Positions 17,467-20,663 of a stretch of DNA of 64,000 bases are shown piece by piece. The notes under the pieces were generated by a model. It saw only the letters and a list, made by a program, of their open reading frames with translations, did no database searches and was not told where the DNA came from. The stretch covers positions 928,001 through 992,000 of the forward strand of contig NZ_CP157522.1 in NCBI RefSeq assembly GCF_049075655.1, in the 5' to 3' direction. This stretch comes from Methanothermococcus sp. Ax23 (GTDB lineage Archaea; AGJL01; Methanococci; Methanococcales; Methanococcaceae). Made by a program: the position numbers and the translations under genes. Position 1 is the first letter of the stretch. Every line of letters begins with the position of its first letter.

Positions 17467-18069
17467 TTAGTGTTCCATATGTTGGTGTTCTTTCCATTTA
17501 ACAAACAAATAGTATTTTTGTGTTTCTTTTAACTCTTCCTCTATTCTTTTTGCAATGGCATCCAATAAATTTCTATGCACTCTCTTTTCAACATCTTCAA
17601 AACTTTCAAATGGTTTTACTTCCCTTTCCTCAATTATTTTCCACATAATGGTTTTGCCAATACCTGGAAGGAGTTGAAGAGAATGCATTTTGTTGGTTAT
17701 TGGTTCGCATTCATTTATAAATTGTATGAATCGTTTTTCATTCTTTTTAATTGCTTCTTTTATAACATAGAATAACTCTGTTTTTGCCGTAGGTGTTAGT
17801 TCTTCATATTTTAACATTCTCGAAATATATTCGACCTTATCCCTCTTACCTTTTCCAATATAAACCCTCTCCGCCAATTCAACAGTCTTATCGTCTTTTA
17901 ACACTAATTCCATTAATACAAATTGTTTTTCACCAAAAGCCTGTGCAATAGGTTTTCGTTGGTGAAGTGGTCTTTTGTCCTCTGGATACCCATATTCAAG
18001 AAAATCCAAAACATAGGCGTAGCTCTCAAATTTCCTTTTTTTAGATTTTTTAGATTCATGTCTTTTCAT
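17467..18069 (-). CDS. DUF655 family putative RNA-binding protein
   Basis: YVLDFL, ERVYIGKGKRDK, HSLQLLPGIG HhH motif; normally follows rpoF; ATG at 18069 preferred. Confidence 0.9.
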   Translation of the reverse strand: MKRHESKKSKKRKFESYAYVLDFLEYGYPEDKRPLHQRKPIAQAFGEKQFVLMELVLKDDKTVELAERVYIGKGKRDKVEYISRMLKYEELTPTAKTELFYVIKEAIKKNEKRFIQFINECEPITNKMHSLQLLPGIGKTIMWKIIEEREVKPFESFEDVEKRVHRNLLDAIAKRIEEELKETQKYYLFVKWKEHQHMEH

Positions 18070-18112
18070 ATTATGCACCCTATGACATTCTCTTCGGTTT
18101 AATAACCGAAGT

Positions 18113-19360
18113 TTATAAGGAATAAATCCTTATTGGGTTGCCAAGCCCACTATCCCTATCCTTTGAAGGATTCGGGACTACCTTTTTCAAAATATTCAAA
18201 GCACCATTTACATCAGCATTTATTATTAAACCACATTTAGAACAAATATATAGACCTCTATATTTTCTATTACTTTTCTTAACGATTCCACAATTACTAC
18301 ATGTTTGAGAAGTATAAGATTCATTAACCTGTTCTACTGTTATTCCATATCCTACTGCTTTATATTGTATCATCTGAATTAACTTTCCAAAAGGTATTCT
18401 GTGTAGTTTTTGATTATTTATTTTCCCTATGTTCATTGAGGTTATTCCTTTGTTCATTTCACCAATTACAATTTTTGAAACTTTATCATTCTTTGCTAAT
18501 TCTACAATCATTCTACTAACTTTATGAATATAATCTTTGACATAATTTTTTTCCTTTACTGTTAATTTTGATAATCTTTTGGAGGTTTTTAGTTTTTGTT
18601 TGGATAAAATAGACATTAGTTTTGCTTTTGTTTTGTTGAACCATCTTAATTTAGATACTAATGTTTTGCCATTGAAAATATAAGGTTGTTTTTCATTCTG
18701 TATTACTGTTGTTGCTAAATTCTTAATTCCTAAGTCAATAGCCATTACTTTTTCATTGTTAAATGTTAGTGGGGTTATTTTTTTCTTATAAATCAAATGA
18801 AGTATAAAATATCTTTTACCGTAAATATCATGCGGGACTATCTCAACTTCTTTAATTTTCATGGTATTGAGCGATAAGATTTTCGGTAATCTTATCCATA
18901 GATACTTGGACTCAATACCATGCTTTTCTTTTAGATAGTTTTTGGTTTGTTTTGAAAGAGATAATCTCAATTTATTGTCTATTATTTTGAATCCGTTCTT
19001 TTTCCATTTAACTGGAAAATGACCATCTTTTGGTTGGAATTTAGGTTTTTTAGTATGTTCGGAGCGAAGCGGAGAGCAACGAAAACCTTCGGTTTTCGTA
19101 TAATGTTTGAAAAAATTATCCCACGCTATTGAAAGTTTTTGACATACTGCTTGTGCTGACTGTGAGTGTAAGTTTTTAAACCAGAAATTGTTCTTCATTT
19201 GAACATCTATTTTGTTAGGGTTAATATTTCGTTGCATTACTTCGTAGTTAGATACATTCCATAGTTTTGATGCTGAATAGGTTAAATGGTTTAGGATTGT
19301 TAATTGTTCATTGTTTAATTGTCTTGTTATGTTCAGCGTGTGGACTCTTGAAACTTCCAA
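18113..19360 (-). CDS. tnpB: RNA-guided endonuclease TnpB (IS200/IS605)
   Basis: AIDLG (RuvC-I), NESYTSQTC, CSNC/CSKC Zn finger, NADVNGALNI (RuvC-III); TTG at 19360 after GGTG preferred, ORF open to 19384. Confidence 0.95.
   Translation of the reverse strand: MEVSRVHTLNITRQLNNEQLTILNHLTYSASKLWNVSNYEVMQRNINPNKIDVQMKNNFWFKNLHSQSAQAVCQKLSIAWDNFFKHYTKTEGFRCSPLRSEHTKKPKFQPKDGHFPVKWKKNGFKIIDNKLRLSLSKQTKNYLKEKHGIESKYLWIRLPKILSLNTMKIKEVEIVPHDIYGKRYFILHLIYKKKITPLTFNNEKVMAIDLGIKNLATTVIQNEKQPYIFNGKTLVSKLRWFNKTKAKLMSILSKQKLKTSKRLSKLTVKEKNYVKDYIHKVSRMIVELAKNDKVSKIVIGEMNKGITSMNIGKINNQKLHRIPFGKLIQMIQYKAVGYGITVEQVNESYTSQTCSNCGIVKKSNRKYRGLYICSKCGLIINADVNGALNILKKVVPNPSKDRDSGLGNPIRIYSL
19055..19102 (-). repeat. 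48-bp in-frame palindromic insertion within tnpB
   Basis: ACGAAAACC-GAA-GGTTTTCGT hairpin plus CGCTTCGCTC motif; AACAT direct repeat at both junctions; encodes YTKTEGFRCSPLRSEH. Confidence 0.75.
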
Positions 19361-19361
19361 G

Positions 19362-19446
19362 CTAAACACCTTTTTGATTATCATATTGTCTAATTATATC
19401 AAGTGATACTGTCCCTACAGTTTTTAATAGGTGTTTTTATCTTCAT
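19362..19446 (-). pseudogene. tnpA: Internally deleted Y1 transposase (tnpA) remnant
   Basis: GGTGA RBS and MKIKTPIK start joined out of frame to TVGTVSLDIIRQYDNQKGV*, resembling the TnpA C-terminal helix with the catalytic Tyr. Confidence 0.7.
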
Positions 19447-19688
19447 ATTTATCACCATGATTTATATGCGCTCTACTCATATATATCTTAAAATAATTAT
19501 TGATATTATTAATATCATCACCGCTTTAAAAAGCGGTGCTTTCAAATTCAATGGTAAAATATAATAAAATTATGGAATTAAAAATTTAAATTGTCTTTAA
19601 TTATATAATATATATCATTAATAGAATAAAAACATATTGATTTAAAACAGATATGAAAAAAGTTTTATTTAATAAAACAAAGGTTTTA

Positions 19689-20012
19689 TTATTTATATTG
19701 GCTTACAATATCCAATATTTCTTCCGAATTCTTTGGAATATCGGATTTATAGAATATTAACTTTAAATCCTCGGTATCTTCTGGAAGTATATCTGCTATT
19801 TTAATTGCTGTTTTTTCATCCAACCCGAGCTCGACCAAATCTTTAACGAGATTTTCTACATCTTCGGCACTCAATCGTGCAAATTTTTCTAAATAATCCA
19901 ATGCACAGCCGTGCTCATAGGATAACTCGTCAATATTTGCTTTGTCTGTCATTATCTCCTTAGCATGAGATATTGTAATATATCTCTCAGAGATTATTTC
20001 TTTTCCTATCAT
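19689..20012 (-). CDS. rpoF: DNA-directed RNA polymerase subunit F (Rpo4)
   Basis: MIGKEII, LSYEH..ALDY, KIADILP; between rpl21e and DUF655; ORF open to 20024. Confidence 0.95.
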   Translation of the reverse strand: MIGKEIISERYITISHAKEIMTDKANIDELSYEHGCALDYLEKFARLSAEDVENLVKDLVELGLDEKTAIKIADILPEDTEDLKLIFYKSDIPKNSEEILDIVSQYK

Positions 20013-20034
20013 AATAATACCCATCTTAAAAAAA

Positions 20035-20229
20035 GTATTTTGTATTAATACTGACCTACTCCAACGAGTGAACTCGTTGGGTTCTTTTAGTAGGGTTTAA
20101 CCCTACACGGGTGGCCAAGCCCACTACCCCTACCCATTAATGGGTTCAGGGCTACGCTATGCACTTCCAACCACTACCAGCGGTAGAGTTTTCACTAACC
20201 CTACCCATAGATACTTGGACTGGTAGCGT
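20035..20229 (-). ncRNA. Putative stand-alone TnpB omegaRNA (scaffold plus 16-nt guide)
   Basis: GC-rich nested hairpins homologous to the tnpB 3' end (18082-18180); TATA-like AATATAAATA at 20251-20260; T7 run right after the guide. Confidence 0.6.
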
Positions 20230-20335
20230 TACTTACTACTAATCTTCATATATTTATATTTTACTACTTACTAGCCGATATAATGTCCGCCTCTCATCCA
20301 ACGACTGAAGTCGTTGACTTTCCCGGCGGTTTATC
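20051..20335 (-). mobile_element. Protein-less IS200/IS605 mini-element (PATE-like), 285 bp
   Basis: Minus strand: TTAC target, AAAG guide, LE hairpin CAACGAC-TTCA-GTCGTTG; RE GAAC guide, hairpin CCAACGAG-TTCA-CTCGTTGG, ending TCAG. Confidence 0.85.
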
Positions 20336-20366
20336 GTAAAATAATTAATAAATATTAATAAAATAA

Positions 20367-20663
<297 letters not shown>

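What the first reader, a model, noticed from the sequence alone, without database searches (positions are those of the whole stretch)
20035..20335. Guide-RNA-only mini-transposon whose scaffold covaries with the neighbouring tnpB omegaRNA
Seen on the minus strand: TTAC | LE (AAAG plus hairpin), a TATA-like AATATAAATA, about 180 nt of nested hairpins, then RE (GAAC plus hairpin, ending TCAG, which fits the IS608 guide rule). The 3' part aligns with the tnpB 3' end with compensatory changes: ATCCT-TCAA-AGGAT vs ACCCA-TTAA-TGGGT, shared TAGTGGGCTTGGC, and TAAGGA..TCCTTA vs TAGGGT..ACCCTA. Exactly 16 nt (TATTAATACAAAATAC) separate the RE from a T7 run. Inference: this is not a simple deletion of the local IS (sequence diverged, structure kept). 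It looks like a self-promoted omegaRNA cassette that borrows TnpA and TnpB in trans, i.e. a dispersed guide-RNA system.
Basis: partly seen in the sequence, partly recalled or inferred. Interest (0 to 1): 0.8.

Follow-up and report, generated by a model that had tools for sequence, protein, structure and literature searches.

The report
Gene-less IS200/IS605 mini-transposon carrying guide-RNA scaffold
This 285-base stretch is one copy of a small, gene-less mobile element that kept only the ends, a likely promoter and the guide-RNA part of a larger TnpB transposon living in the same archaeal genome, a kind of element already described in outline, so it is a clean example and not a new system.

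Summary
Window 20051-20335 (minus strand) is a 285-nt element inserted 3' of TTAC and ending in TCAG. Its hairpin and guide-tetranucleotide geometry matches IS608.

It is not unique. The genome holds 27 intact copies, one copy split by another insertion, and 9 full-length tnpB-only IS elements of about 1.4-1.57 kb with the same ends. The mini-element is a three-block deletion derivative of that family. It keeps the left end plus the upstream TATA-like region, a 43-nt piece from the middle of tnpB, and the last ~105 nt (omegaRNA-type scaffold plus right end).

The scaffold covaries with the neighbouring tnpB 3' end and with relatives: 99.2% of cells paired, 15 of 28 pairs changed on both sides.

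So this is a PATE/MITE of the IS200/IS605 family with a guide-RNA scaffold. That concept is already in print, and the element resembles Rfam HgcC below threshold.

- The cognate TnpB is not the neighbour but two intact copies elsewhere.
- No TnpA gene exists in this genome.
- The T7 run predates the insertion.
- The 37 flank "guides" have no other targets.

Expression evidence is only a weak hint. The internal tnpB hairpin kept by the element is a robust, unexplained conserved structure.

The parts
20336..20339 (-). TTAC target / transposon-adjacent motif, outside the element
   Evidence: TTAC precedes all 27 aligned MITE copies while the sequence upstream of it is unrelated. The same holds for the 9 full-length IS.
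20051..20335 (-). The mini-transposon (PATE/MITE), 285 nt, with no ORF of 50 aa or more
   Evidence: Boundaries come from the 27-copy alignment and the end motifs. No ORF of 50 aa or more lies within it. It is absent from the orthologous spacer of relatives G016 and G010.
20282..20335 (-). Left end: 18 nt, including GL AAAG (20318-20321), then the hairpin at 20298-20317
   Evidence: Read directly. The left-end hairpin shows a compensatory T:A to C:G change among copies. The geometry matches that of IS608 (passages of PMC3201880). This copy lacks the 37-nt two-hairpin insert that 21 of 27 copies carry.
20233..20281 (-). AT-rich block with a BRE/TATA-like GTAAAATATAAATA (TATA-like core 20251-20260); putative promoter
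   Evidence: Conserved in 27 of 27 copies. It aligns weakly (about 70%) with the parents' region between the left end and tnpB. The promoter role is inferred and not shown.
20168..20232 (-). Two-tier hairpin module. The inner 43 nt derive from the middle of tnpB; the outer stem CTACCAG/CTGGTAG is made of sequence not found in the parents
   Evidence: 88-91% identity to IS positions ~661-703.
20085..20155 (-). omegaRNA-type scaffold: stems A, B and D and the invariant UAGUGGGCUUGGC
   Evidence: Alignment A1 and its pair counts. Sub-threshold Rfam HgcC matches fall on sister copies.
20051..20084 (-). Right end: GR GAAC (20081-20084), hairpin 20061-20080, then 10 nt ending in CR TCAG (20051-20054)
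   Evidence: 7 of 8 hairpin pairs change on both sides. GR/CR covary between families: GAAC/TCAG here against GAAA/TCAT in relatives.
20035..20050 (-). Flank that would serve as the 16-nt guide
   Evidence: This position varies among copies. No TTAC-adjacent match with up to 2 mismatches exists elsewhere for this guide. The guide role is inferred.
20028..20034 (-). T7 run: pre-existing spacer sequence upstream of rpoF, not part of the element
   Evidence: Conserved with the following AAGATGGG... in the MITE-free relatives G016 and G010.
18082..19553 (-). Neighbouring tnpB IS of a sister subfamily, used for comparison. It is not the parent
   Evidence: TnpB domains PF07282 and PF01385. Its end hairpins differ. 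A tnpA C-terminal remnant lies at 19365-19430. The left boundary is inferred from TTAC plus AAAG plus the hairpin.

Best explanation
[quoted passage not shown] It arose from a tnpB-only IS family of the same genome by loss of nearly all of tnpB.

It keeps four things:
- The two TnpA recognition ends: TTAC target, AAAG and GAAC guide tetranucleotides, and subterminal hairpins.
- The parents' upstream TATA-like region.
- A conserved hairpin from the middle of tnpB.
- The 3' ~105 nt that in full-length elements form the omegaRNA scaffold.

Shown: anatomy, family, parentage, insertion rule and structural conservation.

Inferred mechanism:
1. The element is transcribed, from its own TATA-like box or by read-through of the L21e-rpoF operon.
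2. The product is an omegaRNA-like RNA whose last ~16 nt are the flank.
3. TnpB from the two intact parental copies loads it in trans.
4. The complex cuts the empty site (TTAC plus flank) after excision.
5. Recombination then restores the element (homing).

Spread to new TTAC sites needed a Y1 TnpA, which this genome no longer encodes.
For: Family and ends:
- 27 intact copies, one split copy and 9 full-length IS share the same ends.
- TTAC precedes 27 of 27 aligned copies, and the flanks are unrelated.
- The left end is 18 nt plus AAAG plus hairpin. The right end is GAAC plus hairpin plus 10 nt ending in TCAG. IS608 has 19 nt and 10 nt with guide tetranucleotides 5' of each hairpin (PMC3201880, passages).
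- GR/CR covary between subfamilies: GAAC/TCAG against GAAA/TCAT.

Parentage:
- Three blocks are 81-93% identical to the full-length IS over most of the shared blocks.

Scaffold:
- 99.2% of cells paired, 15 of 28 pairs changed on both sides, many G-U pairs, slid controls 40-55%.
- MITE-only compensatory variants exist: the right-end hairpin pair G:C against C:G or T:A, and stem B A:U to U:A in one copy.

TnpB supply:
- 2 of 9 parental ORFs are intact and carry PF07282 and PF01385.
- The IDLG, GEL and NAD motifs are visible in the ORFs. The Asp of IDLG (aligned to VDLG) and the NAD motif also appear aligned to a solved relative.

Recent activity:
- Some copies are 99-100% identical over the core.

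Expression hint:
- In an RNA metatranscriptome, summed contig depth is 628 over the 3' part, 137 over the middle, 33 over the left end and 4-9 over the flanks.
- Three runs of unrecorded kind are flat: 167/115/146, 69/98/117 and 62/112/109.

Precedent:
- Meers et al. state that PATEs often encode omegaRNAs needing TnpB in trans.
- A PATE-derived RNA is expressed in H. salinarum (PMC4615843).
- HgcC RNAs are expressed in T. kodakarensis, some without a transposase gene (PMC4247193).
Against: - No transcript start, end or strand is shown. The RNA data are assembled contigs whose depth the tool warns cannot rank parts of a gene.
- At position 20108 all high-depth RNA contigs carry the variant of other copies, not of this one.
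- No TnpA is found in the genome: PF01797 gives 0 hits, and tblastn with a relative's TnpA finds only a 23-aa remnant. Present mobility is therefore doubtful.
- 7 of 9 parental tnpB genes are broken by a 47-nt insert.
- The G-U pairs and the covariation fit the top-strand ssDNA seen by TnpA as well as they fit RNA.
- Several stem variants are shared between MITEs and full-length IS. Part of the covariation is therefore inherited or exchanged, and did not arise within the MITE lineage.
- 18 of 27 copies carry a 50-nt insert between the scaffold and the right-end hairpin. Its effect on a guide RNA is unknown.
Confidence: 0.7

Rival explanations
1. It is an inert relic. The element is a decaying deletion derivative whose structure is explained by descent from the parental IS and by DNA-level constraints on TnpA hairpins during a past burst. 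No RNA function exists.
For: - No TnpA is found in the genome.
- 7 of 9 parents are broken.
- Stem variants are shared with the parents.
- Other internally deleted tnpB derivatives in metagenomes keep or lose the internal hairpin without a rule: 3 types keep it and 3 lose it.
- Orientation relative to upstream ORFs is about even, 15 co-oriented against 13 by my tally on a crude ORF map.
Against: - The scaffold outside the TnpA hairpins (stems A, B and D) is also kept, with compensatory changes and G-U pairs.
- The outer stem of the internal hairpin is re-formed from unrelated sequence in all copies.
- The TATA-like box is conserved in 27 of 27 copies.
- RNA-library depth is skewed to the 3' part, unlike the flat runs.
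- Copies up to 100% identical point to recent activity.
Confidence: 0.2
2. It is an exapted small RNA or a cis element. The RNA (HgcC-like) or the DNA insertion serves the host, for example by modulating the L21e-rpoF operon in which it sits, independently of TnpB.
For: - It sits in sense orientation inside a conserved operon, L21e | element | rpoF | IS | DUF655.
- Contigs from the RNA library run from both flanks into the element (records 6 and 8).
- Overexpression of a PATE RNA improved growth in H. salinarum (PMC4615843).
Against: - The closest relatives lack the insertion at this site.
- The family is found in only 1 of 23 genomes of the taxonomic family.
- 27 dispersed copies with unrelated flanks argue for selfish spread.
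- Nothing specific to this locus is conserved.
Confidence: 0.07
3. It is a dispersed guide-RNA system. The many copies would supply TnpB with guides against other loci or invaders.
For: There are many copies with different 3' flanks, and intact TnpB genes are present.
Against: - Each 'guide' is simply the insertion-site flank.
- Across 37 guides, only 3 low-complexity TTAC-adjacent matches with 2 mismatches exist elsewhere in the genome, including the 7.7-kb contig.
- There is no fixed terminator distance.
- Viral collections were not searched, because a 16-nt AT-rich word would match by chance.
Confidence: 0.03

Closest known systems
PATEs (palindrome-associated transposable elements) of IS200/IS605, as noted in Geobacillus stearothermophilus by Meers et al. 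2023 (PMC10055086, passages read) and first named in Haloquadratum walsbyi (PMC3119063, search listing only)
   Same: A protein-less element bounded by the left and right ends of a resident IS200/IS605 family. It is presumed to be mobilised by TnpA in trans. The paper says PATEs 'often encode omegaRNAs' that need TnpB in trans.
   Different: - The host is a Methanocaldococcus-type archaeon with no TnpA gene.
- The copy number is high: 27 copies against 9 parents.
- It keeps an extra hairpin from mid-tnpB and a TATA-like box.
- Most copies carry small two-hairpin inserts.
Rfam HgcC family (RF00062)
   Same: The HgcC consensus 3' part aligns with the right-end hairpin and with ...GAGUAGGUCAG plus flank of sister copies. 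HgcC RNAs are expressed in hyperthermophilic archaea, some from within transposase genes and some not (PMC4247193). They were linked to IS1341-type right ends in PMC4615843.
   Different: Scores are below the family threshold: the best is 29.6 bits against a gathering score of 50. The window copy gives no match at E up to 10.
IS608 of Helicobacter pylori (TnpA end recognition)
   Same: TTAC target, AAAG guide 5' of the left hairpin, a cleavage tetranucleotide 10 nt 3' of the right hairpin that is paired with a 4-nt guide 5' of it, and no target duplication.
   Different: CR/GR are TCAG/GAAC here instead of TCAA/GAAT. The IS608 GR value is recalled and was not seen in the passages. There is no tnpA, the hairpin sequences differ, and the host is an archaeon.
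VNG_R0052, the PATE-derived RNA of Halobacterium salinarum (PMC4615843)
   Same: An intergenic RNA made of fused left- and right-end parts with the right-end-like tetraloop hairpin.
   Different: It is 99 nt and lacks the long scaffold and the internal tnpB hairpin. It was studied before TnpB was known to be RNA-guided.
ISDra2 TnpB-omegaRNA (solved structures 8exa and 8h1j appear as distant relatives)
   Same: A TnpB of the OrfB_IS605/Cas12f-like family whose guide RNA is encoded at the 3' end of tnpB and runs across the right end into the flank. This function is recalled from the literature.
   Different: The protein relationship is distant (E about 5e-6). The TAM here is TTAC. The scaffold sequence is unrelated.

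Membership tests
IS200/IS605 non-autonomous element (PATE/MITE) | Subterminal hairpins at both ends instead of terminal inverted repeats | tested here: met
   The left hairpin is at 20298-20317 and the right hairpin at 20061-20080. In the right hairpin, 7 of 8 pairs change on both sides. The left hairpin shows a compensatory T:A to C:G change.
IS200/IS605 non-autonomous element (PATE/MITE) | Insertion 3' of a fixed tetranucleotide without target-site duplication | tested here: met
   TTAC precedes 27 of 27 aligned copies and the 9 full-length IS. The right flanks are unrelated to the left flanks.
IS200/IS605 non-autonomous element (PATE/MITE) | Guide tetranucleotides 5' of each hairpin that match the cleavage sites (the IS608 rule) | tested here: met
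   AAAG pairs with TTAC, and GAAC with TCAG. The sister subfamily has GAAA with TCAT, a covarying change. The rule itself comes from PMC3201880. The pairing register is recalled.
IS200/IS605 non-autonomous element (PATE/MITE) | No transposase or accessory gene, plus a full-length partner with the same ends | tested here: met
   No ORF of 50 aa or more lies in 20051-20335. Nine full-length tnpB IS share the same left and right ends.
IS200/IS605 non-autonomous element (PATE/MITE) | Mobilisation by a Y1 TnpA | not testable with these tools
   The own genome gives 0 PF01797 hits at 98.9% completeness and only a 23-aa remnant. Relatives L059 and L074 carry tnpA directly upstream of a homologous tnpB.
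TnpB omegaRNA | Scaffold homologous to the RNA encoded at the 3' end of tnpB, ending at the right end with the flank as guide | tested here: met
   Alignment A1 with 9 parental and 6 related tnpB 3' ends (29 MITE or parental-IS rows plus 6 others), 99.2% paired.
TnpB omegaRNA | Transcribed as a discrete RNA | tested here: inconclusive
   Only contigs of one metatranscriptome are available. Depth is skewed to the 3' part (628/137/33) against flat runs of unrecorded kind. No ends or strand are shown.
TnpB omegaRNA | Bound by TnpB and directs TAM-dependent DNA cleavage | not testable with these tools
   Needs RIP-seq or in vitro cleavage.
Rfam HgcC (RF00062) | Score at or above the gathering threshold of 50 bits | tested here: not met
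   The best sister copy scores 29.6 bits. The window copy gives no match at E up to 10.

The most novel reading that the evidence does not exclude
The mini-element is a natural minimal construct. It shows that this TnpB clade's RNA has a second functional module. The two-tier hairpin lies about 0.75 kb upstream of the scaffold inside the tnpB reading frame. It is conserved by covariation across 40 distinct sequences from archaeal genomes and diverse metagenomes, including a Gly third-codon position covarying with a Thr/Ser/Ala first position. In the MITE it is fused next to the scaffold with a rebuilt outer stem. It could be a distal guide-RNA domain, a TnpB binding or processing signal, or a 5' protective cap. 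I found no description of it: Rfam has no match, and my paper searches were not aimed at this structure.
Probability: 0.2. Interest if true: 0.6.

Novelty: new member of a known kind. Interest (0 to 1): 0.38.

Why it matters
It is a well-resolved archaeal example of a guide-RNA-only derivative of a TnpB transposon. It has 27 copies, identifiable parents, two intact TnpB genes and no TnpA. That makes it a convenient system for three questions.

- Do PATE-encoded omegaRNAs really work in trans?
- How do such families persist without a transposase?
- Which parts of the parental element are needed in cis? Natural minimisation points to the ends, a TATA-like box, the 3' scaffold and, unexpectedly, a hairpin from mid-tnpB.

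It does not reveal a new kind of system.

Tried and rejected
- **Rfam.** The gathering search of the window and the E<=10 search of 17900-20500 gave no family for this copy.
- **T7 run as a designed terminator.** Rejected: the run is conserved in MITE-free relatives and there is no fixed distance in the family (one search stopped on a script error after printing the distances and was rerun).
- **Empty-site evidence from sequencing runs.** No contig joint skipping the element was seen in X18-X20, and X18 holds the same left junction. The orthologous spacers of relatives show absence of the element but not an exact empty site.
- **Off-site guide targets.** None specific. Viral and plasmid collections were not searched.
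- **Long-range pairing.** The idea was that the hairpin's conserved UCCAAG pairs with the scaffold's CUUGG. CCAAG occurs at that place in 13 of 15 elements, but both partners are invariant, so there is no covariation to test it. It is unsupported.
- **Archaeal bulge-helix-bulge intron.** I considered this for the 47-nt insert that breaks 7 of 9 tnpB genes. I saw no fitting geometry by eye. It was not computed.
- **Independent deletion derivatives as a test of the hairpin's necessity.** The result is mixed, 3 types keep it and 3 lose it.
- **Literature.** One search failed on term syntax. Searches (TnpB + MITEs + guide RNA + in trans; HgcC) gave nothing useful. The Suyama 2005 paper is not held. 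Supplementary files were not consulted.
- **Row dropped.** L072 was dropped from A3 and L083 from A5 because a 45-nt loop insert misaligned them.

Full report
**1. Observation**

Read on the minus strand, the region shows TTAC at 20336-20339 and then an element from 20335 to 20051. In order, the element contains:
- 18 nt ending in AAAG (20318-20321).
- A hairpin at 20298-20317.
- An AT-rich block with GTAAAATATAAATA (core 20251-20260).
- A two-tier hairpin at 20168-20232.
- A 105-nt structured 3' part at 20051-20155, holding GAAC (20081-20084), a hairpin (20061-20080) and 10 nt ending in TCAG.

Then follow 16 nt of flank (20035-20050) and T7 (20028-20034). A 217-nt stretch folds at -76.4 kcal/mol with z = -4.2 against shuffles. 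No ORF of 50 aa or more lies inside.

**2. It is a repeat family with identifiable parents**

The own genome is 1.66 Mb plus a 7.7-kb contig, with 32% GC, and it carries an archaeal SRP RNA. Record titles of the nearest relatives read Methanocaldococcus.

- The genome holds 27 intact copies of 283-405 nt. It also holds one copy split by about 1 kb of other DNA, a solo left end, and 9 full-length elements of 1.38-1.57 kb with the same left and right ends.
- In the 27-copy alignment every copy is preceded by TTAC and followed by unrelated sequence.
- The full-length elements encode TnpB, with PF07282 and PF01385. Solved TnpB and Cas12f structures are relatives.
- Two of the nine ORFs are intact, at 408 and 420 aa. 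The other seven are interrupted by a 47-nt two-hairpin insert that shifts the frame.

The mini-element consists of three blocks of the full-length IS:
- The left end plus part of the region upstream of tnpB. This is 88-98% identical in the left end, and the TATA-like part aligns only weakly, at about 70%.
- 43 nt from IS position ~661-703, in the middle of tnpB, at 88-91% identity.
- The last ~105 nt, at 83-93% identity to three of the parents.

Short stretches not found in the parents join these blocks. That IS has different end hairpins, and its TnpB is 63-71% identical. But parents do exist elsewhere in the genome.

**3. Transposon ends**

For IS608, passages of PMC3201880 state three things:
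- The left cleavage site TTAC lies 19 nt 5' of the left hairpin.
- The right cleavage site lies 10 nt 3' of the right hairpin.
- Each site is read by a 4-nt guide 5' of the hairpin foot, with AAAG at the left.

Here the distances are 18 nt and 10 nt. The guides are AAAG and GAAC, and the cleavage sites are TTAC and TCAG. In the sister subfamily (the window's own IS relatives L056, L059, L072-L074), the right pair is GAAA with TCAT. The fourth positions therefore covary. The pairing register is recalled from the IS608 literature. The right hairpin has 7 of 8 pairs changed on both sides across the alignment.

**4. The scaffold**

Alignment A1 holds 35 distinct sequences: 22 MITE, 7 parental IS, the window's IS and 5 relatives. 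I scored it with a structure I derived by eye from that same alignment.

- 99.2% of 959 cells are paired.
- 15 of 28 pairs change on both sides.
- None of 500 shuffles reach the observed value on four of the five measures, and 6 of 500 do on 'further standard pair types'.
- Slid controls give 40-55% paired.

The tool warns that related sequences can beat shuffles, and that a structure derived from the alignment favours itself. The slid controls and the number of double changes are still clear. Many G-U pairs (for example 13 U-G at pair 54-83) show that the structure belongs to the sense strand, as RNA or as top-strand ssDNA. Some stem variants are shared between MITEs and parents, which suggests exchange between copies. 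Others are MITE-only, such as the right-end hairpin G:C variant and one A:U to U:A flip in stem B.

Rfam HgcC (RF00062) matches sister copies and parental 3' ends below threshold, at 29.6 bits or less against 50. The alignment shows that the HgcC consensus ends in a right-end hairpin plus GAGGAGGUCAG. The window copy itself gives no Rfam match.

**5. What does not hold**

- **The T7 run is not part of the design.** The run and the following AAGATGGGTATTATTATG are present in the MITE-free orthologous spacers of G016 and G010. Only 9 of 37 family elements have a T5+ run starting 10-30 nt downstream, against 11.2% of all 13,482 TTAC sites.
- **No TnpA gene is present.** PF01797 finds nothing in the own genome at 98.9% completeness, and finds a match in only 3 of 23 genomes of the taxonomic family. 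tblastn with a relative's TnpA finds only a 23-aa C-terminal remnant directly upstream of the window's tnpB. Relatives L059 and L074 carry tnpA-tnpB elements of the sister subfamily.
- **The guides have no other targets.** Across 37 flank guides there are only 3 low-complexity TTAC-adjacent matches, each with 2 mismatches, elsewhere in the genome.
- **The family is narrow.** It is found only in this genome among 23 genomes of the taxonomic family.

**6. Expression**

One metatranscriptome (X1) holds this strain's sequence, with 0 differences over 440-nt contigs. Only assembled contigs are available.

- In X1, summed depth is 628 over 20022-20135, 137 over 20136-20249 and 33 over 20250-20363, with 4-9 on the flanks.
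- Three runs of unrecorded kind are flat across the element, at about 15-28 times their flanks. That fits the copy number.
- This is compatible with an RNA covering the hairpin module and, above all, the scaffold.

The tool states that contig depth cannot rank parts of a gene. The 3' part is also shared with the full-length IS. At 20108 all high-depth RNA contigs carry another copy's variant. Contigs from the RNA library run from both flanks into this copy, which fits read-through of the L21e-rpoF operon (Pfam assignments). I count this as a weak hint only.

**7. Mechanism and comparison with what is known**

The best-supported reading is a PATE/MITE of IS200/IS605 that carries an omegaRNA gene without tnpB. 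It would be maintained by TnpB in trans through cleavage of its own empty site, and it was spread in the past by a TnpA that is now lost.

This concept is stated in the discussion of Meers et al. 2023 (PMC10055086, passages). A PATE RNA was shown to be expressed in H. salinarum (PMC4615843, passages). HgcC RNAs without a transposase gene are reported in T. kodakarensis (PMC4247193, passage). I saw no experimental proof in these passages that a PATE RNA guides TnpB. Supplements were not consulted. Hence my rating: a new member of a known kind.

**8. The unexplained part**

The 43-nt block kept from mid-tnpB is the core of a two-tier hairpin, with an outer stem of up to 13 bp and an inner stem of 9 bp.

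- It is conserved inside the tnpB reading frame.
- In 20 sequences of this genome and relatives, 92% of cells pair and 10 of 22 pairs change on both sides.
- In 40 distinct sequences, including 32 from 49 hairpin-bearing loci among 66 metagenome loci, 92.7% pair and 17 of 22 pairs change on both sides. Slid controls give 36-47%.
- A Gly third-codon position covaries with a Thr/Ser/Ala first-codon position.
- In the MITE the outer stem is rebuilt from sequence not present in the parents.

Its role is unknown. Other internally deleted tnpB derivatives keep it in 3 types and lose it in 3 types. Breakpoints at the stem could mean that the hairpin merely promotes deletions. Rfam has no match there.

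**9. Small two-hairpin inserts**

- A 37-nt insert sits in the left hairpin of 21 of 27 MITEs and 8 of 9 IS.
- A 50-nt insert sits between the scaffold and the right hairpin in 18 of 27 MITEs and 3 of 9 IS.
- A 47-nt relative breaks tnpB in 7 of 9 IS.
- Roughly 20 or more further copies lie elsewhere in the genome at E <= 1e-3, including in the ends of other tnpB families.
- Copies of the MITE that are 99-100% identical differ in having or lacking these inserts. The window copy lacks both.
- These are probably the palindromic repetitive elements reported for M. jannaschii by Suyama et al. 2005. I saw only the citation, in PMC2229807. The paper is not held, and further details are recalled.

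Noticed in passing
window 18859-18923 (-), inside tnpB; homologous places in L056, L059, L072-L131: A two-tier hairpin lies inside the tnpB coding region, about 0.75 kb upstream of the omegaRNA scaffold. It is conserved by covariation across archaeal genomes and diverse metagenomes: 17 of 22 pairs change on both sides in 40 sequences. Synonymous Gly positions covary with Thr/Ser/Ala codons. It has no Rfam match and its function is unknown.
   Followed up: yes
G000:C1, e.g. 66263-66318, 475882-475938, 1012380-1012435, 1043315-1043370, 1214761-1214814, 1266021-1266079; inside most MITE/IS copies; window 19072-19107 (-): A family of ~37-50-nt two-hairpin inserts with compensatory changes in both stems. 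They sit in the left-end hairpins, the tnpB ORFs and the pre-right-end position of two different tnpB IS families, and at solitary sites. A decayed in-frame copy lies in the window's tnpB. They are present or absent among MITE copies that are otherwise 99-100% identical. They are probably the palindromic repeats of Suyama et al. 2005 (citation only seen).
   Followed up: partly
window 19365-19430 (-): A 23-aa remnant of the C-terminus of a Y1 TnpA (65% identical to a relative's TnpA) lies directly upstream of the window's tnpB. The neighbouring IS is therefore a tnpA-deleted IS605-type element.
   Followed up: partly
window 17467-20663 (-): Two independent IS200/IS605-type insertions (the MITE and the tnpB IS) sit in successive spacers of one conserved operon, L21e - rpoF(Rpb4) - DUF655. 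Both are in sense orientation.
   Followed up: partly
G000:C1:1542609-1544034 (-): One MITE copy is split by about 1.05 kb of inserted DNA, which I did not identify.
   Followed up: no
G000:C1:199792-200841, 336582-337625, 1308629-1309672 (+): A second tnpB family has left ends preceded by TTAAC and a different hairpin (GTCCCCnCCCGTAAGGG...). Each of three copies carries a two-hairpin insert at a different place in the left end.
   Followed up: no
L120-L139 (metagenome loci): Several lineages of internally deleted tnpB derivatives occur in other organisms. Some have deletion breakpoints at the internal hairpin (residues ~135/195).
   Followed up: partly
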